Shown piece by piece: positions 22,010 to 58,171 of a stretch of 64,000 nt of DNA. The first letter of the stretch is position 1, and the number at the start of each line of letters is the position of its first letter. The DNA is from Paracoccaceae bacterium (GTDB lineage: Bacteria; Pseudomonadota; Alphaproteobacteria; Rhodobacterales; Rhodobacteraceae): the NCBI GenBank assembly GCA_030148225.1, contig JASBTX010000038.1:152434-216433 (forward strand). The letters run 5' to 3'. The notes below the pieces were generated by a model. The model worked only from the letters and a program-made list of their open reading frames with translations. It had not been told where the DNA came from and did no database searches. Both the position numbers and the translations under genes were made by a program.

Positions 22010-22085
22010 GAAGTATCCGAATGGAGGGAGCCGGATTTCGCCGTTTCGACGGGAAAAGCGTTCCCTTGCTGAACAAGGACAACAC

Positions 22086-25225: not shown

Positions 25226-25301
<76 letters not shown>

Positions 25302-25529: not shown

Positions 25530-26966
25530 TTACGTATCGTTCACGCGCGGCAGCGCGGCCGTGACGAATGGCCGGGGCAGGGCGCGGCGCAATCTGTCGC
25601 CAAGCGCCTCGTCCAGCCGCTGGCGCTGGCCTTCGATCCTGAGTTCGGCACCCGCCCCCACCGAACGCAGCGCCTTGAATTCATGCCGGTTTATCAGATC
25701 GCTCTGGCTCTCTTGGGTGAGGGTGACATTGATCAGGAAGTTTCCGTCACCTGTCGGGCGCGGCGGTGTTTCGGTATCCAGCCGACCCGAGAGCGGACGT
25801 GTCTCCGCCCCCAGCCCCACGATCCGGATCAGAACGCGCCTTTCGGTGTCGAGTGCGGTCAGAAGATCGCCCGGCACCATCGCGGTAACGGCGTAGGGTC
25901 CCTCATGCGAGGCCGATAATTCGATCACCGGCGCATCCTGTTCAAACACCGCGTTGCCGGTCTGGCGGATGCGATAAATCTCTCCGGTGCTTGGCGCGCG
26001 AATCTCGGGGTTGTCCATGAGCACCTGCAATTGCGAGAGCGCCAGCGAGAGCGCGTCAATGTCACTGCTGAGCGCATGTGCTGCCTGCAGATTTTCCGAT
26101 TGCCGGGTGCTTTCGGCGTCGCGCGCGGCTTTTTCGAGGCGTGCGATATCGCCTTCCAGCAGTGATTTGGTCAGTTTCAGGCTCAACCCGGCGGTAACAT
26201 GGCCCAGCCGCGTCTGCAGGGGGCTATCTCCGTCGCGCGCGCGCCGGGCCAGCAAATTGATGCGGCGTTCAATGATGCGAACCTGCCCACCCATCCGGTC
26301 GATATCGGTCTGACGTTGGGCCGCGTCATCGGCAATTCGGGCCGTCATCAGCGCGCAGGATTTGCGCGCGGCCAGAAAGGCAAACCGCAGATCCGGCCCC
26401 GGGTGCGGCTCGGCCATCATGTCCCACGCGGGAATTGCGCTGTCCGCCGTTTCGGTCCGGGCCGGATTATCCGAGAATTCAGCGGATGTGTCATTGCCGG
26501 CCCGGCTGCCGATTAAACTTTCGCCGGTTTCCATATCCTCGGACGCGGCGGTGATCTGCTCGACGCTAATATTGCCTGTCGGCACGTCTCCGACCAAAAG
26601 GCATTCCCGTCTCAGGCGCAGCGCCACGCGCTGTCGGTTGAGAGCAGCGAATTTCTGCCTCAGCGTCGCCTCGTCCAGCAGAAACAGGATATCGCCCGCA
26701 TCCACCCTGTCGCCTTCGTGCACCAGCATCGTGCTGATGCGGGCATATTTGGGCAGGATGACCTGCTGGCGCGCATCCGCGGCCCGGATTTCACCGTTCA
26801 GCGAAAACCGGGACGGCACGGTGGCCTTGCGGATCAACAGCGCAGCCGAACCCAGCAGAACAAGCGCTGCCATGATGCCGAGGATAACCATCGCCGCCAT
26901 GCGCGGGGTGATCCGGGCGCTGCCATGCGCCTGGACGGCGACAGCTTCTGATGGGTTACCGTGCAT
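25530..26966 (-). CDS. HlyD-family membrane-fusion (periplasmic adaptor) protein
   Basis: N-terminal TM helix (MAAMVILGIMAALVLLGSAALLI), a lipoyl-like block (ARISTMLVHEGDRVDAGDILFLLD), a long coiled-coil middle and a beta-barrel end (IRAPSTGEIYRI). Start is uncertain (26966 overlapping the upstream stop, or 26900). Confidence 0.75.
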   Translation of the reverse strand: MHGNPSEAVAVQAHGSARITPRMAAMVILGIMAALVLLGSAALLIRKATVPSRFSLNGEIRAADARQQVILPKYARISTMLVHEGDRVDAGDILFLLDEATLRQKFAALNRQRVALRLRRECLLVGDVPTGNISVEQITAASEDMETGESLIGSRAGNDTSAEFSDNPARTETADSAIPAWDMMAEPHPGPDLRFAFLAARKSCALMTARIADDAAQRQTDIDRMGGQVRIIERRINLLARRARDGDSPLQTRLGHVTAGLSLKLTKSLLEGDIARLEKAARDAESTRQSENLQAAHALSSDIDALSLALSQLQVLMDNPEIRAPSTGEIYRIRQTGNAVFEQDAPVIELSASHEGPYAVTAMVPGDLLTALDTERRVLIRIVGLGAETRPLSGRLDTETPPRPTGDGNFLINVTLTQESQSDLINRHEFKALRSVGAGAELRIEGQRQRLDEALGDRLRRALPRPFVTAALPRVNDT

Positions 26967-28869
26967 CCTGCACCGCGTTGCGCGGTGCCAGCCGCGGATC
27001 ATATGTGGCGATCTTGACGGTGATCACGCGTTCACCGTTCTGCAGATCGTGGTCGAAATGCTGGCTGCCCCTGATGATCTGCGCCAGCGCCGAGCGCGGG
27101 CGGCCGAGCGCGAGGTTTTCGGCATCCTGACGCGCCCTTGCCATTTGCGTGCTGCCGATGGCGGCGCCCCGGTCGCGCATGCGCAATACGCAATGACCCT
27201 TTTGGTTCTTGAAATCGAAGGTCAGCGTCTGTGCCTCACTTCCCGTTATGTCCTGACAGGACAATGCCAGCATTTCACCGGCGATATTGATGACGTTGCG
27301 CCGGTTCTTTTCATCACCTGAGCGGCGGAAATGCGATCTGATCCAGGATTGGAGCGCGTCTTCGGCCTCGAGGGTGCGCTCGGACACGAGGCGCGACCAG
27401 CCCGACAACCTGCGGGCGCGAATGTCATCCGCTGGCCCCGAATCGATCAGCCGCCCCTCCTCGAGGACGATCAGCGTGTCGCACATTTCCAGTAGCGCGC
27501 GATTGTCGGTGGCAACAACAAAGCTGCGCCCGGCGCGGCGTTCGATCTGGATGCGCTGGCAAAGCGCGGCGATCATCGCTTCGTTGGCGCCATCCTCGGG
27601 CCGGTCAAAGAGATAGAGCGCGGGGTTCATCAGAAACGCGCGCGCCAGTCCCAGGGCCTTTTGCCAGGATGTCGGCAAATCGCGCATATCCGGCGCGGCC
27701 AGAATCATCTCGGCGGTTTCGCGGGAAAAGAGCATCTGTTCGAGGATGCGCACCGCCCGGTCGGCCTGGCCCACGCGCTGAAAACAGGTGATGTTGTTCA
27801 TGCCGCTGGCGGCGAAACCGAGCGGGCGTGGGGGGACATGTGCCACCGGCAGCGCCGCTGGTGCGGAAGATCGCCGCCAGAGCGAGCGGCCATCAAAGCG
27901 GACCCCGCCCTCAACCGACATGCCCGTCAGGTCATGCGGTGCGACAATGGCGTCCAAAAGCAGGCTCTTGCCGGCGCCAGCGCCGCCAATGATGCCGGTC
28001 ATCGTGCCCGGCTCGAGCGAGAGGTTTATCGGCCCCAGAATGGTCTGTCCGCCGCGCCGCATGACATTGAGATCGCTGATCTCCAATCCCCGTTCATCCG
28101 CATCAACAAGGCCCGATTCGCGAACGCGCGCATCGGGCCGCGCGCCGTCGCGCCGGTCCAGTGTATCCTGCAGGAACCGGCCAATCATCTCGGACGACGA
28201 GAGCACGAGGAGCAGGCTTGCCGTCATCGCGACGGGTTCCATCACGCCCCGCATGGCCAGAACCCCCGAGATCAGAAGCGTGGCCAGAAATCCGACAGCA
28301 TTGGTCAGATTGCCCAGCGCAGCCTGCCCGGAAACAGGGAGTGCCGGAGTGGCCTGCGCCAGTTCAAATCCGCGCCGGTCACGGCCTGCCAGAATTGATA
28401 CCGCCTCGGCCGGGTTGAAATCCCAGCGGGCACTGGCAATTGTGGCCCGGAACACGGCCAGTATCAGCCCCGCGCGCAGTGCGACCGCGCCCAAAAGGCC
28501 AAGCCCCAGCAGGGGATGGACGAATTCAAGCGTCAGGAATACAAGGACGCCCATGGCGGCGCGCACGGTGTTCTGCACGCGCGTCGTCCCGCCCAGAAAC
28601 CCCGCCATTGCCCGGTCTTGCGTTAGCTCGAGTATCGTCGCGGCAAGTGCCGGCACAAGACCGGCCAGCGCCAGTATCGGCAAAAGCGATGCATCCTGCA
28701 TATCCAGTACAAAGGATTGAAAAAGCAGTGCAACCAGCGCCAGCGAGAGCCAGAGCACCGACGCCAGCGTTCCCAGGACCCAGCTGAAAATCTGCACCCA
28801 TCCCGGCAATGCGCGGTCCTGACAGGGCAGGGGGATTGCGGTATCCTCTTCAGGTGTCGCTTCTGCCAT
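26956..28869 (-). CDS. ABC-exporter-like protein: membrane domain, degenerate NBD and C-terminal GHKL/RsbW-like domain
   Basis: ATG at 28869 is preceded by GGAGGA. About 240 aa are polytopic. Walker A GGAGAGKS is intact, but the signature motif (LPTSW), Walker B catalytic residue (FDRPEDG), Q-loop and H-loop are all substituted. The last ~150 aa follow an anti-sigma-kinase-like pattern (see findings). Confidence 0.7.
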   Translation of the reverse strand: MAEATPEEDTAIPLPCQDRALPGWVQIFSWVLGTLASVLWLSLALVALLFQSFVLDMQDASLLPILALAGLVPALAATILELTQDRAMAGFLGGTTRVQNTVRAAMGVLVFLTLEFVHPLLGLGLLGAVALRAGLILAVFRATIASARWDFNPAEAVSILAGRDRRGFELAQATPALPVSGQAALGNLTNAVGFLATLLISGVLAMRGVMEPVAMTASLLLVLSSSEMIGRFLQDTLDRRDGARPDARVRESGLVDADERGLEISDLNVMRRGGQTILGPINLSLEPGTMTGIIGGAGAGKSLLLDAIVAPHDLTGMSVEGGVRFDGRSLWRRSSAPAALPVAHVPPRPLGFAASGMNNITCFQRVGQADRAVRILEQMLFSRETAEMILAAPDMRDLPTSWQKALGLARAFLMNPALYLFDRPEDGANEAMIAALCQRIQIERRAGRSFVVATDNRALLEMCDTLIVLEEGRLIDSGPADDIRARRLSGWSRLVSERTLEAEDALQSWIRSHFRRSGDEKNRRNVINIAGEMLALSCQDITGSEAQTLTFDFKNQKGHCVLRMRDRGAAIGSTQMARARQDAENLALGRPRSALAQIIRGSQHFDHDLQNGERVITVKIATYDPRLAPRNAVQDAR

Positions 28870-29067
28870 GAATCCTCCGATTTGGCCCGAAAATCCCCAA
28901 ACGGGACCAGCCGACTTTCACCGATAGGGGCAGAGCGTAAATTTTTGGTTTCGCGGGTCTCGCCGGTCAAAAGGCGTGGGCAAAGGGACGCAATCGTTTC
29001 AAATTTATCGGTTAGAGGGATTTTAACCCCACCCCGCCTAGATCGGCGCAGGTCTGGGACGGGGAGC

Positions 29068-30771
29068 ATGGAAAAAAACCAAATTGAAACCGAAAGGCCG
29101 GCACGGCGTACGGCGGGCTCTGCCGGGTTTTTGGCATTGGGGGCTTTGGCGCTGATAATTGCACTGGCTGCCGGGATCGGACAGATCGCGCGCGGCATGT
29201 TGCTGGCCACGGAAGAGGATATCGATCCGATCATTGCCGGCAGTTCCGAGGATGACATCCCGGCGCTGATGCGCGGCAACCGCCAGAAAGTGACCACCAG
29301 CATGGTCTATCGCGACGAGGAACCGGTACAGAAACCGCCACGCATGTGCGAAATGCCACCGGATTATTTCAATGCCATCAATAGCGCGGAACGCCCCGAG
29401 ATTGGCTATACACGGCGCAATGGTTACGTGCGCCCCTATACCCCCCGGCGGGGCTTTCTGACCGAGCGCGAGATGCGCGCCGCCAAGGTCGCCTGGCATT
29501 ATTTCGAGAAATTCACCCAACCCGATACGGGCCTGGCCAATTCGGTTGGTAATTTCCCCTCGACCACGCTCTGGGACACGGCCTCGTATATTTCCGGGAT
29601 GGTCGCGGCATATGAGCTCTGCCTGATCGAAAAAACCGAGTTTGATGATCGCATCTTTCGCCTGTTAACGACCGTCAAAGGGCTGAAACTCTTCAGAAAA
29701 GAACTGCCAAACAAGGTTTATCACACCAAGACCGGTGCGCAGGTCGACTATACCAACAAGCCCGGTGAAATCGGGTTTTCGGCGCTGGATATCGGGCGGT
29801 TCCTTGTCTGGATGCGTATCCTCAAGAACCGCTATCCCTATCTGGGCAACACGATCGATTCCGTGCTGCTGAAATGGGATTATTCCAATGTGATCGACCC
29901 TCAGGGCCTGCTTGTCGGCGCCTATGTCGACAGCGAAACGAATGAGACGAAATACGCGCAAGAGGGGCGGCTGGGATACGAGGAATATGCCGCCAAGGGC
30001 TTTGCGCTCTGGGGTTTCCGACCGCTTCTCGCGCATCGGGCCGAACCTTTTCTGACAGCCAGTATCTTTGGCGTACAGGTCCCCTATGACGGGCGCGATC
30101 CGCGTATTTTCCATTCGCAGAACTACGTTGTCACCGAATCCTATCTGCTCGACGGGCTCGAGCTGGATTTCGATCTGCCCCATGATGACAGTTCGGGGGA
30201 TCAGGTCCATTCGGATGGCTGGCGCGCCGAGTTTGCCGATCGCATCTACCGTGTCCAGGAGGCGCGCTATCGCAATACCGGCTTTCTGACCGCGCGCTCT
30301 GAACACAACGTCAAAGGGCCGCCATATTTCACCTATGACACCATCTTTTCAGATGGTTATCCGTGGAACACGGTCACACCCCGGGGCGATTACTCTCCCG
30401 ATCATGCGGCCATTGCCTCCAAGGCGGCAATGGGGCTCTGGTCGCTTTGGGATACGCCATATACGCAGCAGCTCTTTGATGCGGTGATCGAGCTTTATAA
30501 CCCTGAAAACGGCATCTACGAGGGGCTCTACGAGCGCGGGCAGGGCAAGATCGAAATCTATACCGCCAATAATAACGGCATCATTCTGGCGGCACTCTTG
30601 CACAAGGTCCAGGGCAAGATCCTGACGCCGCATACCGGCGGGCTCGAGGTCTGGTACACGGCCTTTCGCGATCAGGACGCACGCGAGCGCAAGAACCTGC
30701 CCGATCCGCCATTGCGAGAAGACTGGCTTCCCGCACTCAGACACACGGTCCAAACAGAGGCAGATTTCTGA
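29068..30771 (+). CDS. membrane-anchored DUF3131-like protein (putative glucan-binding/glycoside-hydrolase-like), paralog 1
   Basis: ATG after GGGGAG with an N-terminal TM anchor (FLALGALALIIALAAGIG). Blocks are shared with the 32213..33544 product (A.WHYFE..TQP.TG..NSV..FPSTTLWD; LPNK.Y; DIGRFL; QEGRLGYE.YAA). The DUF3131 assignment is from memory. Confidence 0.6.
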   Translation: MEKNQIETERPARRTAGSAGFLALGALALIIALAAGIGQIARGMLLATEEDIDPIIAGSSEDDIPALMRGNRQKVTTSMVYRDEEPVQKPPRMCEMPPDYFNAINSAERPEIGYTRRNGYVRPYTPRRGFLTEREMRAAKVAWHYFEKFTQPDTGLANSVGNFPSTTLWDTASYISGMVAAYELCLIEKTEFDDRIFRLLTTVKGLKLFRKELPNKVYHTKTGAQVDYTNKPGEIGFSALDIGRFLVWMRILKNRYPYLGNTIDSVLLKWDYSNVIDPQGLLVGAYVDSETNETKYAQEGRLGYEEYAAKGFALWGFRPLLAHRAEPFLTASIFGVQVPYDGRDPRIFHSQNYVVTESYLLDGLELDFDLPHDDSSGDQVHSDGWRAEFADRIYRVQEARYRNTGFLTARSEHNVKGPPYFTYDTIFSDGYPWNTVTPRGDYSPDHAAIASKAAMGLWSLWDTPYTQQLFDAVIELYNPENGIYEGLYERGQGKIEIYTANNNGIILAALLHKVQGKILTPHTGGLEVWYTAFRDQDARERKNLPDPPLREDWLPALRHTVQTEADF

Positions 30772-32141
30772 TGAAACAATTCCTGATCACCACCGCCATC
30801 GCGACCTTGCCCCTGCTTGGTCTGGCACCGTTCACCGCCACGGCCCAGTCGACAACCACCGATTTCAGCCCCGAAAACGCCATCCTCGATACATCGATCC
30901 TCTTTGCTGTCGGCGCGCGCGAGGCGCGTCAGGCATTGCGCAGCGCCTTTGGCTGGGAGATGTTTCAGGAAGGCCTTGTCGAAGGTGTGTATTTTCGTTT
31001 TGATCCAGATGGTTACGCGCGTTTCGCACCGACGCCGCGGCTTGATAGCGACGTCTTCGAGGTTATCTGCCGCCCCCGCACGCGTGTCTGCGAGGCCCGC
31101 AAAGAGGGGCTTGGCGTCTTTCTCGACAGCCGGGGCCGGGTTCAGCTCAGGCTCGAACAATATGTGCCGGGTGACCGCGTCTTCATATCCGAGGGGGTGA
31201 GCGATCTGGAATTGCCCGAGCGCGTGCTTCAGCCGCTGGATGCGCGCTTCGAGGCGCTCTTGTCGACTGGCGGGGAACTGGCGGTGCGGCGCGAGAATGC
31301 GCCCGTCACATCCGCGTCGCTGGTTGGGTTCGCGGCTGTCGTCGCCTATCTGCGCTGGATCAATGCCGGGCAGGACTATACCGTGCTGCCGCGCGACTGG
31401 CCGGTGCCGAACAGCATCGCCGGGGAAACGATCACGCGCACGCCGGAATGGACGTCTTTTACCGGCCGCGACCCCAACCCGGACGGGCGGCAGGTTGCGC
31501 TCGAAGGTGCGCAGGAACTGACCACCGAGATCGAGTTTCTGCGCAAGACGCTCGAGGCGCAGCGCAACGATCAGGAACCCCTGGCTGAGCAGGGGGCCAT
31601 CGCCTTTGATCGCCCATCCGAGCAGATCAGAGAGGGCTTTGTCACCGACAATTCGGCCATGGTCGACCTTGCCTCGCGGGTGACGCGCCTTGAATATGGG
31701 CTGGCTGATCTGCGCACCGAGATCGAGCGCAAGCTGCAATCACTGGAACTGCAGTTGCGGCTGGACGGTCAGGCGGGTGACACCCCTGCCATACCCTCTG
31801 ACGTCCCGATCCCCGATAATACGGATAAGGCGGTTCCCGCGCTCTCCGCCGCCGAAACCGTGCTTGGCTCGGCACCCGCCGAATTGTCACAGCTGGCGGC
31901 ACTTATGGAGATGTTGCAGCAGAACAATGACGTGAGCGACAGCATCATCCCGGTATCGCCCGCGAAGGACGCGATGAACGACCGGATATCGGAACGCTTG
32001 CTCTCGATCATCCTCGAAGAACTGGATCAGCCGCTGGGTGCTGCCCCGGCTGAGGCGCAACCCGCGCAGAATATTGTACCGCGCAACAGCGACTACCAGA
32101 AACTTTCCGACTATCTGAGCGGCCTGACCCAAGGGCAATGA
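30771..32141 (+). CDS. secreted hypothetical protein with coiled-coil segment
   Basis: The start overlaps the upstream stop (TGATG). It has a signal peptide (MKQFLITTAIATLPLLGLAPFTATAQS) and a central heptad-like region (VTRLEYGLADLRTEIERKLQSLELQLRL). No family recognised. Confidence 0.6.
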   Translation: MKQFLITTAIATLPLLGLAPFTATAQSTTTDFSPENAILDTSILFAVGAREARQALRSAFGWEMFQEGLVEGVYFRFDPDGYARFAPTPRLDSDVFEVICRPRTRVCEARKEGLGVFLDSRGRVQLRLEQYVPGDRVFISEGVSDLELPERVLQPLDARFEALLSTGGELAVRRENAPVTSASLVGFAAVVAYLRWINAGQDYTVLPRDWPVPNSIAGETITRTPEWTSFTGRDPNPDGRQVALEGAQELTTEIEFLRKTLEAQRNDQEPLAEQGAIAFDRPSEQIREGFVTDNSAMVDLASRVTRLEYGLADLRTEIERKLQSLELQLRLDGQAGDTPAIPSDVPIPDNTDKAVPALSAAETVLGSAPAELSQLAALMEMLQQNNDVSDSIIPVSPAKDAMNDRISERLLSIILEELDQPLGAAPAEAQPAQNIVPRNSDYQKLSDYLSGLTQGQ

Positions 32142-32212
32142 GGCCCGGTTTTTTGCAATTCCCCACCCCGGCATGAAGGCAGGCTTTGCACACGGGCCGG
32201 ACCGTCGGCACC

Positions 32213-33544
32213 TCAGTTCTCGGTTTGGTTGCTATTCCGGGTTCTGCGCTTCAGAAACGGACCGAACTGGCGATAATGCAGCGCCTCGAGGATGACGGCG
32301 TTTGTATTCAGGCTGAGCGCCGCGTTGATCTGCCCGTCAGCCTCGTAGATACCGCCCGCCCAGCCACGCGCCGGGTTCTCCAGCGGCGCGATTTCGGCCA
32401 TCAACCGGGTGGTATAGGCGGTCGACAGTAGCGCATGCCAGGCAAATACCGATTTCGTGCTCAATGTCCTGAGCCCGGGATAAAGGGTGCCGACCTCATC
32501 GATCACGGCCCAGTCCTGCCCGTTGGCAAAGACCGAACTATAGAGGAAATAGGGTGCCCGGTCGATGTGGTCTTCCGACACCATCAGGGCGCGCCCTGTC
32601 CTCTCTCCCTCTGCCGCCTGTGCCTCGTAAATTCGCATGGCGGGCAGGCTCATCTCGGTCCCGGCGCCGAATTCCAGCAGCGACAGCACATATGGCTCGC
32701 TCAATATGGGTGTGATCGCGCCGAAATCGGCGTAACGACGCCGATCCGTGGCGACCTCGCGCCCCGAAATGCGGCGCCACCGGATCTTGTCTGCTGCCCG
32801 GATCGCCTGGCTGGTATCGATCCCGTAAAGCGACAGCGCGCGCGCGGCATATTGCTCATAGCCGAGCCGCCCTTCCTGCAGGCGGCGCCACGTGCCGTCC
32901 TCGCGCGCGGCACCCATCAGATCGCCGTCGCGGACAAGATCATCCAGCACCCATGCATCTGTGACGGCGGCGATCTCGGCGGCCAGTTCCGGTGCCTGCC
33001 GCCCAAGCGCCGACAGTGCGGCCAGAAACCGTCCGATATCCAGCACCGACCAGCCGATCCCGTCCGCGGCCGCGTTGTTCAGATAGTCCGTCTGGGTAAG
33101 GGTCAGCGTGTTATAGGCCTTGTTCGGCAGCCGCCCTTCAAAAAGCGGCAATGCCGCCGTGCTGCGCAGGAATTGCCGCGCCCTGTCCAGAAACGCCGCG
33201 TCGCCGATCAGGTCCAGTCTGCGCGCGGCGATGAGCGCAAAGACATAGGCCCCCTGATCCCAGAGTGTCGAGGATGGAAACCCGTCCACCGCGTTTACCC
33301 AGCCGGTTTCGGGCTGGGTGTTGCGCTCGATATACCGCCAGGCCGTTCTGGCGGCGCGCAATTCGTTGGCGGTCAGCGGGCGCTGCACCAGAGCGGCGAA
33401 ATCGCGGGTCGCCTCGGCGTAGCCATCCAGTTCAGAGATGCGCGAGAGCGGCCGGGACACGGCGGTATCCAACCCCAGAGCAAGGCCCGCCGCGCCGACG
33501 AGACCCGCCAAAAATATCAGGTTTGACACGTATTTCGGGCGCAT
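32213..33544 (-). CDS. DUF3131-like protein, paralog 2 (signal/anchor plus periplasmic domain)
   Basis: ATG 33544 is preceded by AGAGGGA and lies 4 nt after the GT2 stop. N-terminus MRPKYVSNLIFLAGLVGAAGLALG. It is clearly paralogous to the 29068..30771 product. Confidence 0.65.
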   Translation of the reverse strand: MRPKYVSNLIFLAGLVGAAGLALGLDTAVSRPLSRISELDGYAEATRDFAALVQRPLTANELRAARTAWRYIERNTQPETGWVNAVDGFPSSTLWDQGAYVFALIAARRLDLIGDAAFLDRARQFLRSTAALPLFEGRLPNKAYNTLTLTQTDYLNNAAADGIGWSVLDIGRFLAALSALGRQAPELAAEIAAVTDAWVLDDLVRDGDLMGAAREDGTWRRLQEGRLGYEQYAARALSLYGIDTSQAIRAADKIRWRRISGREVATDRRRYADFGAITPILSEPYVLSLLEFGAGTEMSLPAMRIYEAQAAEGERTGRALMVSEDHIDRAPYFLYSSVFANGQDWAVIDEVGTLYPGLRTLSTKSVFAWHALLSTAYTTRLMAEIAPLENPARGWAGGIYEADGQINAALSLNTNAVILEALHYRQFGPFLKRRTRNSNQTEN

Positions 33545-33548
33545 GGCG

Positions 33549-35261
33549 TTATCCCTCTGTCGCATGAGCAGTGCAGGCACCCACCCCGTGCGGCGGGCGC
33601 CAGAATCCGGCAAGGATCGGGGCGGCCAGCGCATAGCTGTTCCAACCGATCCAGAATGTATTGACCAAGACCAGCGTCGCATCCAGCGTGCCGGGCCAGA
33701 GCCAGAGACGAAGCAACGCCCAGATCACGGCGGCAAATCCGGCGCCGATCAGGGCCAGATGCAGCCGGCAATAGCGGAGCGACGCGGCCCCGCCGGGGGT
33801 TTTCGGTGTCGGTGCAAAACGGATCTCGCGCCCCCGCAGAACCAGCCAGAGCGCGCGCAGATTGATCTGAAGTGCAGCCAGGTTCTGGCGGGTACCATAG
33901 GTCGGATCATGGCCCCAGCAGCCGACGATCAGCGCCAGCTCATTGACCACCAGCAGCGGAATGAGCCGCATAAAAAACTCGGTCGAATAGGCGGAAACCG
34001 GGGCGATACCCGTCACCAGCGTCAAGATCGGCGCAAGAAGGAGCACCAGCACCCAGACAATCGAGAGATATGAGGAGAACGTGGCCAGATAATGCAGCTT
34101 GATCCGCCAAGGCATGGTGCGGCACATCAGCAGGTTGTGGCGCAGCATGATATCGAATGTGCCACCGGCATATTTAAGCTTTTGCCCGGCCCAGGCACGC
34201 AGGCTCCATGGTGAGAGCATCCTGCACTCGATCCGGGGGTGATAGACCGACCGCCAGTGCCGCGACGATGCGCCATGCAGCCGGATCGAGGTCAGGATAT
34301 CCTCGGATACATGATAGCAAAACGGGCGGAGATCCGCGGCCTGCGAAGCTGAACTGCCGGCATATTTGCGTGTGGCAAGCGCGGCCTCGAAAAGCGCCTC
34401 CGTTCGGTGCAGAGAGCCCGCGCCGCAGCAAAACGAGGCACCGTTGCGGTTGCGCCGTCGCTGGATGATGTCGAAAAACAACCCGGGATCGGCCTGAAAC
34501 GGATCGGCCCGGCCAGACAGCCATTGGCGAAACGATGTCCGCCGCCCGGGTTCGGGAATGTCGTAAAACCAGTGCGGCGTCTGAACCCATGCCACGCGCG
34601 CATCGCGGAAATAGCCCAATGTATTTTGCAGGAAAGCCGGGAAAAGCCGGGTGTCAGCATCGCAGATCACCGCGAAATCGGCGTCCGAGTGAAAGAGACC
34701 ATTCTTGAGATTCCCGGCCTTGAAACCGGTATTCTGCCGCCGCGCGACATAGCCTGCGCCCTCCTGTCGGGCGATCTCGGCCATCGCGGGGCGGGCGCCA
34801 TCATCGAGCACTGTGATGCGCAGGGCCGTGCCCGCAGGCGGGCGGACAGCCGCCGCATCCCGGATACTGAGGCGCACGAGTTCCGGGCTCTCGTCAAAGG
34901 TGGCGATGAAAATCTCCACCCGGACAGGCCCATCGCCTGCCAGATGCAGATCGGCGCGCTGCGCGGGCGGGGCTGGCGCGGGCGTGTCCGCGCTTGCCCA
35001 GATGTCGTGAAAAAAGAGCAGCGTTGCCAGATAGGCCATGGTCTCGGCGCTGAGCACGATCACCGAAAAGATCGGTGCCTCGGGGTTGATCGAGGCCGTC
35101 CAGCGCCAGCCAAGATACCACGCGCCAAGCCCGATGGTCAGCGCGGCCAGGAACTGCCAGAGCGCCTCGCGCAGGGGGCTTTCTGCCACCGGTTCGGGGG
35201 GGCAGCGATCCTCGTAAGCGTCAAAGTAGAATGCGGGCATGCGGGCCTGACTATCCGGCAC
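33549..35261 (-). CDS. processive family-2 glycosyltransferase, cellulose/curdlan-synthase-like, no PilZ domain
   Basis: Multi-TM protein with GT2 blocks: VLDDGAR, ICDADTRL, FCCGAGSLHRTEAL, SEDILTSIRLH, and QKLKYAGG where QxxRW is expected. Start is GTG 35261 or ATG 35240. Confidence 0.8.
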   Translation of the reverse strand: MPDSQARMPAFYFDAYEDRCPPEPVAESPLREALWQFLAALTIGLGAWYLGWRWTASINPEAPIFSVIVLSAETMAYLATLLFFHDIWASADTPAPAPPAQRADLHLAGDGPVRVEIFIATFDESPELVRLSIRDAAAVRPPAGTALRITVLDDGARPAMAEIARQEGAGYVARRQNTGFKAGNLKNGLFHSDADFAVICDADTRLFPAFLQNTLGYFRDARVAWVQTPHWFYDIPEPGRRTSFRQWLSGRADPFQADPGLFFDIIQRRRNRNGASFCCGAGSLHRTEALFEAALATRKYAGSSASQAADLRPFCYHVSEDILTSIRLHGASSRHWRSVYHPRIECRMLSPWSLRAWAGQKLKYAGGTFDIMLRHNLLMCRTMPWRIKLHYLATFSSYLSIVWVLVLLLAPILTLVTGIAPVSAYSTEFFMRLIPLLVVNELALIVGCWGHDPTYGTRQNLAALQINLRALWLVLRGREIRFAPTPKTPGGAASLRYCRLHLALIGAGFAAVIWALLRLWLWPGTLDATLVLVNTFWIGWNSYALAAPILAGFWRPPHGVGACTAHATEG

Positions 35262-36729
35262 GCAAGAGGGCAGGGGTGACAGCGATATCTTGCGGTGCGG
35301 GCGCGGTGCGTGGGCCTTGGGCGGTGGTCAGCGCCGTCTCTTCGGTTGCGGGTACGGCGGGGTAGATGCCCGAAATGCTCCAGTCATTGCTGATGATCTG
35401 ATCACAGTGTATCGCGCCCGTCTCGATTGCCGTGCCGGGCAGGATCACGCTTGCCCTGATCGAGCTGCGGGCGGGAATGGTTGTATTCGCTCCGATCACC
35501 ACGGGCCCGGTGATGTGGGCGCCGGGTGCGATATCGACACCTTCGCCCACCCAGATCGGCCCGTGAAAATTGCGCCGTTTCCCGATCAGGGTCAGCCGCG
35601 CCGCGCCGGGGCCGACAAATGCCGTCTGGCCGGGCGGCACCGCGCGCAGTGCGGCGATGTTTTCACGAAAGAAATCAAGGGGAGTGCCGATATCCCGCCA
35701 GTCGAAACCGGCGCTCCAGACGCAGATTTTGCCGCCTTGGGCCATCACCGCCGGAATGAGGTCACGGGCGATATCCTGCCCGGCGGCGGGGCCGATCGCG
35801 TTCAGCACCCCAGGCGACATCACATAGACCCCGATATTGGCCAGCCGCGAGCGGGCCTCTGCCGGGTCCGGCTTTTCCTGAAATCCCGTGACGGTGCCGC
35901 AAGGCGTGGCGGCGATGATCCCGTATTTCGACACGTCGCATTCCGCCACCTCCCGCGCGGCGATGGTGATCTCTGCCCCGCTTGCCTGATGTGCATCCAT
36001 GAGGGCGGCAAGGTCAGGATCGACCAGCGCATCGCCGCAAAAGACGAAGAACGGCGCGTCGAAACAGCTGAGCGCGGATTGCATCCGGCGAAGTGTCGAG
36101 GCCGAGCCCAGCGGTTCGTCAATCCATTCCCCGTCCCGATAGGCACCCTCGTTGAGATATGTCATGCGGATGTTCTGCCCGCGCCCGCTGCCGAAATAGT
36201 CGTGGATCTGCGGGCCCAGATAGCCCGGATTGGTCAGGATATCGCGCACACCGAACCGGGCCAGATGATCCAGCTGGTGATGCAGGATCGGGCGGCCAAG
36301 GATGGGCAGCATCGGTTTGGGATAACGAAGCGTCAGGGGGCGGCACCGCGTTCCCTTGCCCGCCGCCAACAGCACCGCCCGCCGCCCCGCCAGCCGGTGA
36401 CGACGGCCCCAAGGTGAGGTCAGCGCAGCCGATTTGGTGGCAAAATACCGAAGGCTCTCTATCAGCTCTGACCGTCTGAGCCGGTCTGCCACGCCGTCGC
36501 GGGCACCGAAAAAACCGGTCTGGGGGCGGCTGGCATGCAACTCAGCCAGCGCCGCCAGCCCGCCAAAGTTTATTGTGCGCACGCCCGACAGATCCAGAAG
36601 CGCCGCGCGCTGCCCGACATCGTACTCCGAAAGCGCGTTCTGCAATTCGCTCAGGGCATTGGCGCGCAGCATACGGGCGCTGACGCGGAATACGGCCAGA
36701 TCGCCATATCGTTCGATTTGGGTCATCAT
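35251..36729 (-). CDS. STAS domain fused to an NDP-sugar pyrophosphorylase with C-terminal left-handed beta-helix
   Basis: The start ATGATG overlaps the upstream stop (ATGA). Residues 1-~105 have an anti-sigma-antagonist-like layout. This is followed by LLAAGKGTRCRPLTLRYPKPMLPI (GxGTRxxPLT motif) and hexapeptide-like repeats near the C-terminus. The 95-codon upstream extension in the track is antisense-overlap noise. Confidence 0.75.
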   Translation of the reverse strand: MMTQIERYGDLAVFRVSARMLRANALSELQNALSEYDVGQRAALLDLSGVRTINFGGLAALAELHASRPQTGFFGARDGVADRLRRSELIESLRYFATKSAALTSPWGRRHRLAGRRAVLLAAGKGTRCRPLTLRYPKPMLPILGRPILHHQLDHLARFGVRDILTNPGYLGPQIHDYFGSGRGQNIRMTYLNEGAYRDGEWIDEPLGSASTLRRMQSALSCFDAPFFVFCGDALVDPDLAALMDAHQASGAEITIAAREVAECDVSKYGIIAATPCGTVTGFQEKPDPAEARSRLANIGVYVMSPGVLNAIGPAAGQDIARDLIPAVMAQGGKICVWSAGFDWRDIGTPLDFFRENIAALRAVPPGQTAFVGPGAARLTLIGKRRNFHGPIWVGEGVDIAPGAHITGPVVIGANTTIPARSSIRASVILPGTAIETGAIHCDQIISNDWSISGIYPAVPATEETALTTAQGPRTAPAPQDIAVTPALLRAG

Positions 36730-37883
36730 GGTTTGGGGCTCCGGATTGTTGGACGGCGATAGGGGATCAGGCGACCGGGATCGAACCGGGGGCGGGGGCC
36801 CAGACCGATGGTCCATGCCATCGTCGGCCAGCGCCCGATCAACCAGACAAATCCCGATGTCGCCAGCAGCACGAAAACGATCTTGGTCAGTACGAATGGC
36901 CCGGGGTGCAGCGCCAGCCCGGCCAGTCCGATTTCGGCCAGATCCATGAAAACCGGATGCGTGAGGTAGATGCCGAAACTGTAGGGCGCGAGCCGCGACA
37001 GCAGCACAGGCCATTTCCTGTCCGCCAGCAAAAGGCAGATCAGGAACAGGATCACCGGCATGATGAAATCGGCCCAGTAGGCGGGCGTGTAGTTATATTG
37101 CCAGTCACCCGCCAGTGCGACGCGGTAGGTATAGATGAGCTTGATCAGAAAGAGGCCAAGGCCAAGATAGATCACGACGCTGACCCATTGTCTGGCAACC
37201 GCGCCGGTGGGCCGCATCCGGTAAAGCCCCAGACAGGCACCCGCCGCCATGCCATAGCCCAGATAGGTAAAAAGTTTGATCCCTCGTACGAGGTAGTCAA
37301 AGCCGTCAAGCCACTGAAGTTCCGACCAGATAAACAGATCGGCCTCGCGCTTGATCAGCAGGCTGGGGATCAGGATCAGCCCCAGCCATGGATTGGCTAC
37401 CGCCAGCCGGAAGAGCGGATAGGCCAGCACCAGAGCAAAGAGGGTCGGGATGAAGTGCATGTGATATTTCACGGCCCCCAGCAGCAGATATTCCGCCCAC
37501 GCGGCGGGGCTGCGCATCTCGGCGATGGCCGAGGGCAGATAGCCAAAGCTCGTTGCCTTGATCAGGTTCCAGAACGCAAAGAACAGAGTCCAGAAGAGAA
37601 ACGGCACCAAAAGCCGCGCCGCCTGTTCGCGAATGATTTCACCATAGCTGCGCGGACGCCGGTCGAGCGCCATCAGCAACAGAAAGAGCGATATGATGAT
37701 GAAAAGCTCGGTCCGCGCGGTATAGACCACGACCCGGATCAGCAGGGGGACCAGACGCTCGGACGGGGTGGCATCGGGGAAGGGCTGGCCGGTCGGGTCG
37801 GCGGTGGCATGCAGCCCCACCATCGACACGCCCGCAATCAGGCGCAGGGCATCCAGCCAGATCAATCTCGAATGTTCGCGCAC
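36726..37883 (-). CDS. acyltransferase-3 family membrane protein (OpgC/OafA-like O-acyl/succinyl transferase)
   Basis: About 10 TM helices, N-terminal RLIWLDALRLIAGVSMVGLH and C-terminal SFGIYLTHP. GTG 37883 is preceded by GGAGG with a 5 nt spacer. The track start (TTG 37958) is less likely. Confidence 0.75.
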   Translation of the reverse strand: MREHSRLIWLDALRLIAGVSMVGLHATADPTGQPFPDATPSERLVPLLIRVVVYTARTELFIIISLFLLLMALDRRPRSYGEIIREQAARLLVPFLFWTLFFAFWNLIKATSFGYLPSAIAEMRSPAAWAEYLLLGAVKYHMHFIPTLFALVLAYPLFRLAVANPWLGLILIPSLLIKREADLFIWSELQWLDGFDYLVRGIKLFTYLGYGMAAGACLGLYRMRPTGAVARQWVSVVIYLGLGLFLIKLIYTYRVALAGDWQYNYTPAYWADFIMPVILFLICLLLADRKWPVLLSRLAPYSFGIYLTHPVFMDLAEIGLAGLALHPGPFVLTKIVFVLLATSGFVWLIGRWPTMAWTIGLGPRPRFDPGRLIPYRRPTIRSPKP

Positions 37884-38045
37884 CGCCGCCTCCGTCGTTG
37901 TCACGACTAGGGACGGCAAAGTCAAAAAATTGGTTAACCGGGGCGGCGTTTTGCACAAGAAAATTTTTATCCACCGGCGCGGGCTGCTTTTACGAATTCT
38001 TATCGCCTTCCGGCGCAGTCTTGCCGCAGATCAAAGGAGGTGGTG

Positions 38046-58168: not shown

Positions 58169-58171
58169 GAC

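What the first reader, a model, noticed from the sequence alone, without database searches (positions are those of the whole stretch)
26956..28869. ABC-exporter-like protein with a gutted ATPase site and a C-terminal RsbW/SpoIIAB-like pseudo-kinase domain
Walker A is intact (GGAGAGKS). Aligned by eye to HlyB-type NBDs, four other catalytic positions are substituted. The Q-loop Gln is Pro (VAHVPP) and the signature LSGGQ reads LPTSW. The catalytic Glu after the Walker B Asp is Arg (LYLFDRPEDG), and the H-loop His is Asp (VVATDN). As a homodimer, this protein would have no competent hydrolysis site. After the NBD, about 150 aa follow a GHKL anti-sigma-kinase layout: NIAGEMLALSCQ at the N-box position (without the Mg-ATP Asn), then TLTFDFKNQKGHCVLRMRDRGAAIG (a DxG-like G1 box), then GRPRSALAQIIRGSQHFDHDLQNGERVITVKIA. 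The same locus encodes a STAS domain (35251..36729). STAS plus an RsbW-like domain is the core of partner-switching modules. Here both are fused to polysaccharide machinery instead of controlling a sigma factor.
Basis: partly seen in the sequence, partly recalled or inferred. Interest (0 to 1): 0.8.

Follow-up and report, generated by a model that had tools for sequence, protein, structure and literature searches.

The report
Dead ABC exporter with anti-sigma-like tail
A marine Roseobacter-group polysaccharide gene cluster encodes a membrane ABC-type protein that has lost every ATP-splitting residue and carries an unannotated tail predicted to fold like an anti-sigma-factor kinase, while a sugar-activating enzyme in the same cluster carries the matching STAS partner domain, which suggests a built-in protein-docking switch on a sugar-polymer export machine.

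Summary
ORF 26956..28869(-) encodes a 637-aa protein with three parts: a compact 6-helix membrane domain, an ABC nucleotide-binding domain (NBD), and a conserved C-terminal domain of about 140 aa.

- **NBD.** In 58 relatives the Walker A Lys and Walker B Asp are invariant. None has the catalytic Glu (Arg in 52/58) or the Q-loop Gln. The H-loop His survives in 1/58 and a canonical LSGGQ in 1/58.
- **C-terminal domain.** No Pfam hit reaches threshold. Its AlphaFold model (pLDDT 88) matches SpoIIAB, UsfX and RsbW as its top 11 PDB hits (E 4e-6, TM 0.6-0.7). It lacks the N-box Asn and the G1/G2 glycines.
- **Partner gene.** The N-terminus of the 35251..36729 product is a STAS domain (profile E 5e-8 to anti-sigma antagonists). 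It has no conserved phospho-serine.
- **Co-occurrence.** Both fusions sit in one BcsA-like (no PilZ) synthase cluster, found only in Rhodobacterales (55 species).

Best reading: a non-hydrolysing scaffold or regulator of the export apparatus that docks the STAS-tagged enzyme without phosphorylation. The interaction itself is untested. I class it as a new variant of known kinds; interest is about 0.62.

The parts
26956..28869 (-). Gene for the 637-aa three-domain ABC-like protein (family representative P0001)
   Evidence: ORF; SD GGAGG upstream of the ATG; 16 full-length homologs at 36-49% identity; 55 species loci
28150..28806 (-). Compact membrane domain (aa ~22-240). It has six long helices plus a highly conserved cytoplasmic loop between TM4 and TM5 (E-P-x-W-D-F-x-P-x-E-A...G-R-D, aa 146-171), which is a likely coupling helix.
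   Evidence: Secondary structure of the AF2 model; column conservation; no ABC_membrane Pfam hit and no PDB profile hit; the full-length model aligns to PrtD/IrtAB/TmrAB/HlyB at E 1e-16 but TM only 0.33-0.41
27421..28086 (-). Degenerate ABC nucleotide-binding domain (aa ~262-483)
   Evidence: Pfam ABC_tran 1.7e-10; residue-level alignment to BSEP; family statistics
27964..27987 (-). Walker A, GGAGAGKS (aa 295-302); intact and invariant
   Evidence: G295 58/58, K301 58/58, S/T302 58/58
27583..27618 (-). Walker B and former catalytic site, LYLFDRPEDGAN (aa 418-429). D422 is kept, the catalytic Glu is replaced by R423, and P424 and E425 are invariant.
26992..27402 (-). C-terminal domain (aa ~490-626), predicted Bergerat/GHKL fold closest to anti-sigma Ser-kinases. 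It lacks the N-box Asn and the G1/G2 glycines. Invariant motifs are F-R-R-x-G-D-E-x-N-R-R (514-524), F-D-F-K-H (551-555) and T-Y-D-P-R (622-626).
   Evidence: AF2 model; Foldseek; register from hhalign; column statistics; a profile search of 1.84e9 proteins finds the domain essentially only at the C-terminus of 640-700-aa proteins
25530..27002 (-). HlyD/T1SS-type membrane-fusion (periplasmic adaptor) protein. It overlaps or abuts the ABC-like gene; its start codon is uncertain (ATGs at 27002, 26966, 26900).
   Evidence: NCBIfam type_I_hlyD 1.3e-12 and Pfam HlyD_3 7e-4, both below cut-off; a ~410-445-aa gene follows the ABC-like gene in the gene-called related loci, except L004 where a 57-aa gene intervenes
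35251..36729 (-). STAS + sugar-1-phosphate nucleotidyltransferase + left-handed beta-helix protein (492 aa)
   Evidence: Pfam NTP_transferase 2e-36, Hexapep, sub-threshold STAS/STAS_2; NCBIfam mannose-1-P guanylyltransferase-like, below cut-off
36415..36729 (-). N-terminal STAS (anti-sigma-antagonist-like) domain, aa 1-105. The canonical phospho-Ser column is occupied by Phe here and varies across the family.
   Evidence: Profile A3 against PDB: 4qtp 5e-8, RsfB 1.3e-7, SpoIIAA 4e-4, MlaB homologs 1e-3; alignment
33549..35261 (-). BcsA/CelA-like processive GT2 synthase without a PilZ domain
   Evidence: Pfam GT2 families; NCBIfam CelA 5e-44, below cut-off; phmmer to BcsA 7lby E 3e-30, covering BcsA residues 202-683 only
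36726..37958 (-). Acyl_transf_3 membrane O-acyltransferase; first gene of the synthase operon; start uncertain
   Evidence: Pfam 2.5e-30; conserved position in related loci
32213..33682 (-). DUF3131 protein b, downstream of GT2; start uncertain
   Evidence: Pfam DUF3131 1.4e-120
29068..30771 (+). DUF3131 protein a, membrane-anchored and divergent from the ABC-like gene. It is the most conserved protein of the cluster (70-80% identity across genera).
   Evidence: Pfam DUF3131 3.9e-116; tblastn identities; start at MEKNQ checked
30771..32141 (+). Conserved 456-aa protein with a signal peptide and no family assignment, co-transcribed with DUF3131a
   Evidence: No Pfam or NCBIfam hit; translation; conserved next to DUF3131a in nearly all loci
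38040..38546 (+). OmpA-family protein divergent from the acyltransferase; marks the cluster boundary
   Evidence: Pfam OmpA 2.7e-11; an OmpA gene is in the same position in L002, L004, L005, L062-L065

Best explanation
**What it is.** The gene encodes an inner-membrane protein that descends from T1SS/HlyB-type ABC half-transporters and no longer works as an ATP-hydrolysing pump.

**Shown**
- The NBD keeps only the phosphate-binding P-loop and the Walker B Asp. It has lost the A-loop aromatic, Q-loop Gln, signature motif, catalytic Glu and H-loop His across the whole family.
- The replacements are themselves conserved: D-R-P-E-D, and an acidic residue at the H-loop position. The altered site is therefore under selection, not decaying.
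- The NBD is joined by a 2-residue linker to a domain predicted to have the Bergerat fold of the anti-sigma Ser-kinases SpoIIAB/RsbW/UsfX. That domain lacks the Mg-ATP-binding Asn and the glycine-rich G1/G2 lid.
- The gene is co-transcribed with a HlyD-type adaptor. It sits in a synthase-dependent polysaccharide cluster: BcsA-like GT2 without PilZ, O-acyltransferase, two DUF3131 proteins, a secreted unknown protein and OmpA.
- The cluster's nucleotidyltransferase carries an N-terminal STAS domain with no conserved phospho-acceptor.

**Inferred**
- The ABC-like protein, presumably a homodimer, forms with the adaptor the inner-membrane/periplasmic scaffold of the polymer export route. This is analogous to the proposed BgsA-BgsB-TolC complex for mixed-linkage glucan.
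- Its RsbW-like tail docks the STAS domain of the nucleotidyltransferase without phosphorylation, as the kinase-negative anti-sigma factor UsfX/RsbW1 binds RsfA/RsfB.
- Docking would recruit or regulate precursor supply, or the synthase complex, at the export site. It would stand in for the c-di-GMP/PilZ control that this synthase lacks.
- Nucleotide binding, not hydrolysis, in the retained P-loop may set the conformation of the NBD/tail dimer and so the affinity for STAS.
For: - **Architecture and degeneracy:**
- **Fold of the tail:**. The top 11 PDB hits are all anti-sigma kinases (E 4e-6 to 5e-4, TM 0.58-0.74). HATPase_c_2 is the most recurrent, though sub-threshold, Pfam family among members.
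- **Loss of kinase motifs:**
- **STAS identity and missing phospho-Ser:**
- **Both partners of solved kinase/antagonist complexes (8ih8, 1tid, 1th8) are matched by the two fusion proteins:**
- **Genomic linkage in both directions:**
- **STAS outlasts the enzyme.** STAS is retained in the ~8 lineages where the G-x-G-T/S-R motif of the nucleotidyltransferase is destroyed. This suggests the conserved role of that protein is binding or regulation rather than catalysis.
- **Co-evolution hint.** Pairwise distances of STAS track the ABC tail (r 0.71; partial 0.56 controlling for GT2) slightly better than they track the NBD (0.67; 0.44) or STAS's own fused enzyme domain (0.60; 0.44). This is weak support.
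- **No phosphatase or sigma factor.** None was found among about 30 larger ORFs of the window.
- **The synthase lacks PilZ**.
- **Precedents.** Kinase-negative anti-sigma factors bind STAS antagonists (PMC7693655). Partner switches control polysaccharide and c-di-GMP outputs (PMC7647112). An MFP plus TolC works with a GT2 glucan synthase (PMC13438883).
Against: - No interaction was predicted or measured.
- The GHKL assignment rests on a predicted structure built from 15 sequences. Sequence-profile tests are below threshold.
- In 8-10 species loci with full 10-kb flanks, the synthase/STAS sub-cluster is not near the ABC-like gene. I could not check whether it lies elsewhere in those genomes.
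- The STAS domain is the least conserved part (26% mean identity), which is low for an obligate interface.
- STAS profiles also weakly match MlaB, which binds an ABC NBD rather than a kinase-like domain.
- The invariant E425, two residues after the lost catalytic Glu, could conceivably rescue some hydrolysis.
- The membrane domain cannot be placed in ABC_membrane by sequence.
Confidence: 0.45

Rival explanations
1. MlaB-like mode. The STAS domain binds the degenerate NBD itself, as MlaB binds MlaF. The C-terminal domain would then be a dimerisation or regulatory domain under the NBDs, like the C-terminal domains of MalK, MetN and ModC, with no specific link to STAS.
For: The STAS profile also hits MlaB homologs (7d06_C, 6z5u_C, 6ic4_K at about 1e-3; E. 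coli MlaB at 0.02). The tail follows the last NBD helix after only two residues, which is the position of known ABC regulatory domains. NBD-STAS distance correlation (0.67) is only slightly below tail-STAS (0.71).
Against: The best STAS matches are anti-sigma antagonists, four to five orders of magnitude better than MlaB. The tail's nearest structures are exactly the proteins that bind such antagonists.
Confidence: 0.2
2. Ligand-sensor tail. The GHKL-like domain keeps a remnant pocket (E532, D566) and binds a small molecule such as a nucleotide, second messenger or NDP-sugar. It would replace the missing PilZ domain as the allosteric input to export. STAS would act elsewhere.
For: The counterparts of SpoIIAB E46 and the adenine-binding G1 Asp are conserved (53/58 and 54/58). 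A CA domain that binds c-di-GMP (CckA, 5idm) is among the structural matches (rank 43). The synthase has no PilZ.
Against: The Mg-binding Asn is replaced by Phe/Leu in all members, and the G1/G2 glycines of the ATP lid are gone. No ligand evidence exists. This reading does not explain why a STAS domain co-occurs.
Confidence: 0.15
3. Still a working pump. The protein hydrolyses ATP, or another NTP, through non-canonical residues such as the invariant E425, and actively exports the polymer or a lipid-linked intermediate. The tail would be an accessory or substrate-recognition domain like the C-terminal domain of Wzt.
For: Walker A, Walker B Asp and an invariant acidic residue at +3 are all retained. 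The TM4-TM5 cytoplasmic loop is strongly conserved, which suggests NBD-to-membrane-domain coupling still matters. The gene is paired with an adaptor like real T1SS pumps.
Against: Five of the seven canonical NBD motifs are lost in all or nearly all of 58 members, including both residues of the catalytic dyad. No second ABC half-transporter in the cluster could supply a competent site. The tail's fold is a kinase fold, not a carbohydrate-binding beta-sandwich.
Confidence: 0.1
4. The anti-sigma-kinase resemblance is an artefact of a shallow-alignment structure prediction, or convergence on a common alpha/beta sandwich. On this reading the tail is an unrelated family-specific domain.
For: No sequence-based method reaches significance: the profile against PDB finds nothing, hhalign probability is 7.5%, and Pfam best E is 0.06. 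The model was built from only 15 sequences. RMSD is 4-5 Å.
Against: Model confidence is high (pLDDT 87.8, pTM 0.82, all five models 83-88). All 50 listed matches are GHKL domains, and the top 11 are the anti-sigma subfamily. The independent hhalign register places the conserved Glu and Asp on the N-box Glu and G1 Asp. HATPase_c_2 is the most recurrent weak Pfam match. A STAS partner is encoded in the same cluster.
Confidence: 0.1

Closest known systems
Kinase-negative anti-sigma factors UsfX (M. tuberculosis) / RsbW1 (M. smegmatis) with STAS antagonists RsfA/RsfB (PDB 8ih8)
   Same: Same predicted GHKL fold. The STAS partner is of the same family. Binding occurs without the anti-sigma factor phosphorylating its antagonist (PMC7693655).
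   Different: Here the domain is fused to the C-terminus of a membrane ABC protein, and no sigma factor gene is associated. The N, G1 and G2 boxes are more thoroughly erased. The STAS partner is fused to an enzyme.
SpoIIAB-SpoIIAA and RsbW-RsbV partner-switching modules (PDB 1tid, 1th8, 6m36)
   Same: These are the best structural matches for the tail and significant profile matches for the STAS domain.
   Different: There is no kinase chemistry (Asn 0/58, glycine boxes lost) and no conserved phospho-Ser on STAS. No PP2C phosphatase or sigma factor was found in the window.
Type I secretion ABC exporters with HlyD adaptors (PrtD 5l22, HlyB 7sgr)
   Same: They are the nearest structures for the full-length model and the nearest NCBIfam models for the NBD. 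An HlyD-type adaptor gene is adjacent.
   Different: Scores are far below family cut-offs (61 bits against 510-693). The membrane domain is about 60 residues shorter and has no ABC_membrane signal. All catalytic residues are lost. A C-terminal domain has been added.
BgsA-BgsB-TolC mixed-linkage beta-glucan system of Sinorhizobium meliloti, with its separate Bgr partner-switching regulators
   Same: An alphaproteobacterial BcsA-like GT2 synthase works with an HlyD-type adaptor (PMC13438883). It is regulated by a STAS/RsbW-type partner switch acting on a non-sigma target (PMC7647112).
   Different: The Bgr proteins are free-standing, use phosphorylation (BgrU/BgrW/BgrV) and act through a diguanylate cyclase and a c-di-GMP-binding synthase. 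Here the modules are fused to structural and enzymatic components, the kinase is dead, the synthase has no PilZ-type domain, and an ABC-like protein is present.
MlaFEDB: STAS protein MlaB bound to ABC ATPase MlaF
   Same: A STAS domain partners with an ABC transporter. There is a weak profile match of this STAS family to MlaB.
   Different: MlaF is a competent ATPase with no GHKL-like domain, and MlaB is a free protein. The match to MlaB is far weaker than the match to anti-sigma antagonists.
ABC exporters with one degenerate nucleotide-binding site (TM287/288, TmrAB, BSEP/ABCB11 NBD1, CFTR)
   Same: They show the same kinds of substitution at the catalytic Glu, H-loop and signature positions. 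BSEP NBDs are the best sequence matches in the PDB.
   Different: Those proteins keep one consensus site. This is a half-transporter with no partner gene, so a homodimer would have two dead sites.

Membership tests
ABC ATPase domain (Pfam PF00005 ABC_tran) | Profile match above the curated cut-off | tested here: met
   42.1 bits against a cut-off of 25, residues 280-424
ABC ATPase domain (Pfam PF00005 ABC_tran) | Walker A GxxGxGK[ST] and Walker B hhhhD | tested here: met
   GGAGAGKS; K301, S/T302 and D422 in 58/58
ABC ATPase domain (Pfam PF00005 ABC_tran) | Catalytic Glu after Walker B, and H-loop His | tested here: not met
   Position 423 is R52 Q3 K1 G1 W1. Position 455 is E26 D20 Q5 and others, His 1/58
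ABC ATPase domain (Pfam PF00005 ABC_tran) | Q-loop Gln, LSGGQ signature, A-loop aromatic | tested here: not met
   Gln 0/58 at position 347. LPTSW here; canonical LSGGQ in 1/58. No conserved aromatic at 268-274
Type IV ABC exporter / T1SS permease-ATPase (PF00664; TIGR01842, TIGR03375) | ABC_membrane transmembrane-domain profile | tested here: not met
   No Pfam hit. A profile of the membrane domain finds no PDB relative
Type IV ABC exporter / T1SS permease-ATPase (PF00664; TIGR01842, TIGR03375) | NCBIfam family score above cut-off | tested here: not met
   61 and 59.5 bits against cut-offs of 693 and 510; only the NBD region aligns
Type IV ABC exporter / T1SS permease-ATPase (PF00664; TIGR01842, TIGR03375) | Overall fold like solved exporters | tested here: inconclusive
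   Foldseek top hits are PrtD, IrtAB, TmrAB and HlyB at E 1e-16 over about 550 columns. However, TM is only 0.33-0.41 and RMSD 11-14 Å
Type IV ABC exporter / T1SS permease-ATPase (PF00664; TIGR01842, TIGR03375) | Adjacent HlyD-family adaptor gene | tested here: met
   25530..27002(-): type_I_hlyD 1.3e-12, HlyD_3 7e-4, both sub-threshold. The position is conserved in related loci
GHKL anti-sigma Ser-kinase (HATPase_c_2, RsbW/SpoIIAB/UsfX) | Bergerat alpha/beta fold | tested here: met
   Tested on a predicted structure only. Top 11 PDB matches are anti-sigma kinases, E 4e-6 to 5e-4, TM 0.58-0.74
GHKL anti-sigma Ser-kinase (HATPase_c_2, RsbW/SpoIIAB/UsfX) | Significant sequence-profile match | tested here: not met
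   Pfam has none for the window protein. HATPase_c_2 matches 3/15 members with best E 0.061. hhalign probability is 7.5%. The PDB profile search is empty
GHKL anti-sigma Ser-kinase (HATPase_c_2, RsbW/SpoIIAB/UsfX) | N-box Asn, G1 DxGxG, G2 GxG (ATP/Mg binding) | tested here: not met
   The Asn position is F28 L23 V4 Y2 H1. The G1 Asp is kept in 54/58, but Gly survives in 10/58 and 1/58. G2 positions are P50 and A50
GHKL anti-sigma Ser-kinase (HATPase_c_2, RsbW/SpoIIAB/UsfX) | Binds a sigma factor and/or a STAS antagonist | not testable with these tools
   No multimer prediction was available. Only genomic linkage and weak mirror-tree support could be obtained
STAS / anti-sigma-factor antagonist (PF01740, PF13466), for the 35251..36729 product | Profile match to solved antagonists | tested here: met
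   4qtp 5.2e-8, RsfB 1.3e-7, SpoIIAA 3.7e-4. Pfam STAS is sub-threshold in the window protein but is recorded without a weak mark for one homolog, L062, and as weak or faint for others
STAS / anti-sigma-factor antagonist (PF01740, PF13466), for the 35251..36729 product | Conserved phosphorylatable Ser/Thr (DS*SGLG position) | tested here: not met
   The column reads F, M, H, S, E, Y, R, A and others across 28 members; it is Phe in the window (aligned by eye to SpoIIAA)
Canonical partner-switching system | PP2C phosphatase and a switchable output partner (sigma factor or DGC) encoded nearby | tested here: not met
   No SpoIIE/PP2C, sigma factor or GGDEF among about 30 larger ORFs of the window or in the gene tables of related loci. 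Small ORFs were not scanned

The most novel reading that the evidence does not exclude
This would be a kinase-free partner switch built into the secretion machinery. Nucleotide occupancy of a catalytically dead ABC NBD, rather than of the GHKL pocket, would set the conformation of a fused RsbW-like dimer. That dimer would capture or release a STAS-tagged nucleotidyltransferase, or in some lineages a STAS-tagged pseudoenzyme. Cellular energy or precursor status would thereby be coupled directly to gating of a synthase-dependent glucan export channel. In Roseobacters this logic would replace c-di-GMP/PilZ control.
Probability: 0.15. Interest if true: 0.85.

Novelty: new variant of a known kind. 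Interest (0 to 1): 0.62.

Why it matters
If the docking model is right, three well-studied modules are combined in a way I did not find described: an ABC exporter scaffold, the anti-sigma kinase fold and the STAS antagonist.

- It would be a homodimeric ABC half-transporter in which ATP hydrolysis has been selected away but the P-loop kept. That makes it a natural test case for what nucleotide binding alone does in ABC proteins.
- It would extend partner-switching from transcription and c-di-GMP control to direct physical control of a polysaccharide export machine and its precursor enzyme.
- It would suggest how a BcsA-like synthase without PilZ is regulated.

The family is confined to the marine Roseobacter group (55 species-level genomes). 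Surface polysaccharides in that group govern attachment to algae and particles, so the cluster is also a candidate determinant of that lifestyle. Practically, the C-terminal domain is an unannotated family (83 representatives at 50% identity) that deserves a profile model.

Tried and rejected
- **C-terminal profile against PDB sequences:** only chance hits.
- **hhalign of the C-terminal family against a 3-sequence SpoIIAB/RsbW alignment:** probability 7.5%. It was useful only for the motif register.
- **The search for homologous proteins with the STAS alignment A3:** returned nothing, not even family members, so one capped search was lost. I repeated it with the full-length protein.
- **Membrane-domain profile against PDB:** nothing relevant.
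- **DUF3131a against PDB:** no relative, so the polymer type could not be inferred that way.
- **Literature search for DUF3131 and for this architecture:** no description of the family in the held library.
- **Sinorhizobium APS cluster (apsS/apsH/apsE):** considered as the same system, but I had no sequences to test it and dropped it.
- **Rfam scan for a c-di-GMP or other riboswitch in the cluster:** only a tRNA.
- **Mirror-tree analysis:** gives only a small excess for tail-STAS. I treat it as weak because all the genes share one phylogeny and no significance test is valid.
- **Pseudogene or decay explanation:** rejected. All three domains are conserved at 34-46% identity across 58 sequences, and the substituted residues are themselves conserved.

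Full report
**1. Observation**

A GGAGG lies 5 nt upstream of its ATG. Its third-position GC (0.74) matches neighbouring genes.

Pfam recognises only an ABC_tran domain at residues 280-424 (42 bits against a cut-off of 25). It finds no ABC_membrane domain and nothing in the last 150 residues. NCBIfam's nearest models are T1SS permease/ATPases and CydD. Scores are about 60 bits against cut-offs of 435-693, and only the NBD aligns.

| Motif | Canonical | Here |
|---|---|---|
| Walker A | GxxGxGK[ST] | GGAGAGKS, intact |
| Q-loop | Gln | P347 |
| Signature | LSGGQ | LPTSW |
| Walker B | hhhhD | D422 kept |
| Catalytic residue | Glu | R423 |
| H-loop | His | D455 |

**2. The degeneracy is ancient and selected**

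A word-indexed search of 5.8 billion proteins found only 16 full-length relatives at 36-49% identity. Beyond them were ordinary exporters matching the NBD alone at E about 1e-9. A scan of one genome per species found the gene in 55 species, all Rhodobacterales/Roseobacter-group. Examples are HTCC2150, Pseudoruegeria, Shimia, Cognatishimia, Phaeobacter italicus, Tropicimonas, Actibacterium, Amylibacter and Planktomarina.

Counts in 58 non-redundant sequences:
- Walker A Lys is present in 58/58, Ser/Thr in 58/58, and Walker B Asp in 58/58.
- The catalytic-Glu position is R52 Q3 K1 G1 W1; Glu never occurs.
- The two following residues, P424 and E425, are invariant.
- The Q-loop position never holds Gln.
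- The H-loop position is acidic in 46/58 and His once.
- A canonical LSGGQ occurs once.
- No A-loop aromatic residue is conserved.

Mean pairwise identity is 34% for the membrane domain, 46% for the NBD and 46% for the tail. This is a conserved non-canonical site, not a decaying one. The cluster holds no second ABC half-transporter. A homodimer would therefore have two non-consensus sites; this step is inference.

**3. The C-terminal domain**

Sequence methods fail to place it:
- The profile against PDB sequences finds nothing.
- Pfam finds nothing for the window protein.
- hhalign against SpoIIAB/RsbW gives 7.5% probability.

Scanning 15 members one by one, HATPase_c_2 is the family hit by the most members, but always below threshold (3/15, best E 0.061).

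Structure prediction is clearer. The full-length model has pLDDT 80. The isolated tail has pLDDT 87.8 and pTM 0.82, with a beta-alpha-alpha-beta-beta-alpha-alpha-beta-beta order.

Foldseek against the PDB returns anti-sigma Ser-kinases as the 11 best hits. These are SpoIIAB (1tid, 1th8, 1til, 1l0o; E 4e-6 to 1e-4), UsfX (8ih8) and RsbW (6m36, 6m37; target TM up to 0.74). Histidine-kinase CA domains follow.

- SpoIIAB E46 aligns to E532 (Glu in 53/58).
- The N-box Asn50 aligns to L536 (F/L/V/Y/H; Asn 0/58).
- The G1 Asp81 aligns to D566 (54/58), but its glycines are lost.
- The G2 glycines align to Pro/Ala.

"GHKL fold, kinase motifs erased" is therefore supported at the level of a predicted structure. 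A profile of the tail searched against 1.84 billion representatives finds 83 proteins. Essentially all carry the domain at the C-terminus of 640-700-aa proteins or are fragments, and none is a free-standing anti-sigma factor.

**4. The membrane domain and adaptor**

The model has six long helices within 240 residues. A very conserved cytoplasmic loop lies between TM4 and TM5 (W149, E155, G162, R163 and D164 nearly invariant), where exporters carry a coupling helix.

The whole model's best PDB matches are PrtD, IrtAB, TmrAB and HlyB (E 1e-16 over about 550 columns). TM is only 0.33-0.41, and a sequence profile of the domain finds nothing. "ABC-exporter-like" is thus plausible but not established for the membrane part.

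The downstream, overlapping gene 25530..27002 is a weak HlyD/T1SS adaptor. A ~410-445-aa gene follows the ABC-like gene in the gene-called related loci, except L004, where a 57-aa gene intervenes.

**5. The locus**

The cluster runs from 25530 to 38546:

| Coordinates | Strand | Product |
|---|---|---|
| 25530..27002 | - | HlyD-type adaptor |
| 26956..28869 | - | ABC-like protein |
| 29068..30771 | + | Membrane-anchored DUF3131 |
| 30771..32141 | + | Secreted 456-aa unknown protein |
| 32213..33682 | - | Second DUF3131 |
| 33549..35261 | - | BcsA-like GT2 |
| 35251..36729 | - | STAS-nucleotidyltransferase-LbH |
| 36726..37958 | - | Acyl_transf_3 |
| 38040..38546 | + | OmpA-family protein |

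The GT2 aligns to BcsA residues 202-683 only, at E 3e-30, so it has no PilZ domain. Flanking genes are housekeeping (Lon, TGT, sulfite reductase, a YbbA/YbbP-type ABC system). I found no PP2C phosphatase, sigma factor or GGDEF protein among about 30 larger ORFs, and no riboswitch.

**6. The STAS partner**

Pfam's STAS hits on the window protein are below threshold. I therefore collected the gene between the acyltransferase and GT2 from 28 loci.

A profile of their first ~105 residues matches solved anti-sigma antagonists:
- 4qtp at E 5e-8
- RsfB (8ih8_A) at 1.3e-7
- SpoIIAA (1tid_B) at 3.7e-4
- MlaB homologs at about 1e-3

The same crystal complexes (8ih8, 1tid, 1th8) are thus hit on their kinase chain by the ABC tail and on their antagonist chain by this domain.

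The column of the phosphorylated Ser (DS*SGLG) is Phe in the window and varies across the family. That fits a dead kinase and an absent phosphatase.

In about 8 lineages (Cognatishimia, Tropicimonas, L008, L014, L038, L054, L060) the G-x-G-T/S-R motif of the nucleotidyltransferase is destroyed while STAS remains. The conserved job of this protein may therefore be binding rather than catalysis.

**7. Co-occurrence**

An HMM scan shows a STAS-family domain immediately upstream of GT2 in every locus where that position lies inside the fetched DNA (31 loci). The GT2 sub-cluster is within 10 kb of the ABC-like gene in 37 of 55 species loci. In 8-10 loci with full flanks it is not, and I could not search the rest of those genomes.

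In the reverse direction, STAS-fused nucleotidyltransferases form about 28 clusters. The next-best relatives are unfused ~385-aa betaproteobacterial NDP-sugar synthases. All three complete loci fetched from the STAS side contain the ~660-aa ABC_tran-only gene plus adaptor. A fourth is cut off just at the DUF3131a gene.

A mirror-tree comparison gives tail-STAS r = 0.71 (partial 0.56 controlling for GT2). NBD-STAS gives 0.67 (0.44), and STAS against its own enzyme domain gives 0.60 (0.44). This is suggestive only.

**8. Mechanism**

*Shown:* the three-domain architecture; a conserved P-loop with all catalytic residues lost; a predicted anti-sigma-kinase fold without ATP-binding motifs; a bona fide STAS domain without a phospho-acceptor; and tight genomic linkage inside a synthase-dependent polysaccharide cluster lacking PilZ.

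*Inferred:* the ABC-like dimer and its adaptor form the scaffold of the export route, as proposed for BgsA-BgsB-TolC (PMC13438883). Its tail binds the STAS domain without phosphorylation, as kinase-negative UsfX/RsbW1 binds RsfA/RsfB (PMC7693655). This would tether or regulate the nucleotidyltransferase, or a pseudoenzyme, at the machine. Nucleotide binding in the P-loop may tune the interaction. Partner switches that act on non-sigma targets and control polysaccharides are known: Bgr, SiaABCD and HsbA (PMC7647112).

*Rivals:*
- STAS binds the NBD in the MlaB manner.
- The tail is a small-ligand sensor.
- The protein retains non-canonical ATPase activity.
- The fold assignment is an artefact.

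I give the docking model 0.45. The architecture itself I hold at about 0.85.

**9. Novelty**

Each ingredient is known: degenerate ABC sites, kinase-dead anti-sigma factors, STAS fusions, and partner switches that control exopolysaccharide. Three features together are not described in the literature I could search, and the tail is not covered by Pfam or NCBIfam:
- an RsbW-like pseudokinase fused to an ABC half-transporter with no consensus site;
- STAS fused to an NDP-sugar enzyme;
- both restricted to one cluster type in Roseobacters.

I class it as a new variant of a known kind, with interest about 0.62.

Noticed in passing
L002 2302-3675; L008 553-2028; L014 6669-8081; L036/L053; L038 16039-17544; L054 15900-17339; L060 1864-3411: In about 8 lineages the STAS-fused nucleotidyltransferase has lost its G-x-G-T/S-R nucleotide-binding motif (for example LNLSETSIELS in Cognatishimia). 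It keeps the STAS domain and its overall length, so these look like pseudoenzymes retained for a non-catalytic role.
   Followed up: partly
window 29068-30771 (+) and its orthologs in L001-L060: The membrane-anchored DUF3131 protein divergent from the ABC-like gene is 70-80% identical across genera. The synthase is 45-55% identical and the ABC-like protein 35-47%. DUF3131a is therefore by far the most constrained protein of the cluster. It has no relative among solved structures.
   Followed up: partly
window 27583-27618 and 27499-27519 (aa 422-426 and 455): The canonical Glu-His catalytic dyad is replaced by Arg423 plus an acidic residue at 455 (E/D in 46/58). This may be a charge-swapped salt bridge. 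P424 and E425 are invariant, giving a D-R-P-E-D motif.
   Followed up: partly
L062 18204-18983; L063 7001-7846; L064 7082-7849; L065 4220-4996: A GH16 glycoside hydrolase gene (the laminarinase/lichenase family) recurs beside the cluster in related loci, hinting that the polymer is a beta-1,3 or mixed-linkage glucan. I saw no GH16 in the window cluster.
   Followed up: no
L005 6748-7959 and 11325-12595; L062 15451-18242; L064 4457-7096: PG_binding_1, Peptidase_C14 (caspase-like) and a second OmpA gene recur between the two halves of the cluster in several genomes. They are absent from the window.
   Followed up: no
L021 2724-3569; L033 2712-3446; L034 2282-3037; L062 11498-12262; L063 11494-12246; L065 9332-10099: Many relatives carry an extra ~250-aa gene with no Pfam hit between the STAS-nucleotidyltransferase and the GT2 synthase. 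The window lacks it.
   Followed up: no
window 33549-35261 (-): The GT2 synthase aligns to BcsA residues 202-683 (E 3e-30) and ends there. It lacks the C-terminal PilZ domain through which c-di-GMP activates cellulose synthase.
   Followed up: partly
L001/L037 4491-6307: In an uncultured Pseudoruegeria genome, IS elements (HTH_Tnp_1, rve) sit directly next to the unk456-DUF3131a-ABC-adaptor half-cluster, and the synthase half is not within 10 kb. This suggests the cluster can be split by transposition.
   Followed up: no
window 25226-25298 (+): A tRNA gene (Rfam RF00005, 68 bits) lies just downstream of the adaptor gene, at the edge of the cluster. Lon protease (21957-24497) is beyond it.
   Followed up: no
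window 30771-32141 (+): This conserved 456-aa protein has a clear signal peptide (MKQFLITTAIATLPLLGLAPFTATAQS) and an acidic, low-complexity C-terminal half. It has no family assignment and is always paired with DUF3131a.
   Followed up: no
window 56408-59497 (+): A histidine kinase (HisKA + HATPase_c) and a sigma-54-dependent response regulator pair lie about 18 kb from the cluster. No link to the cluster was examined.
   Followed up: no
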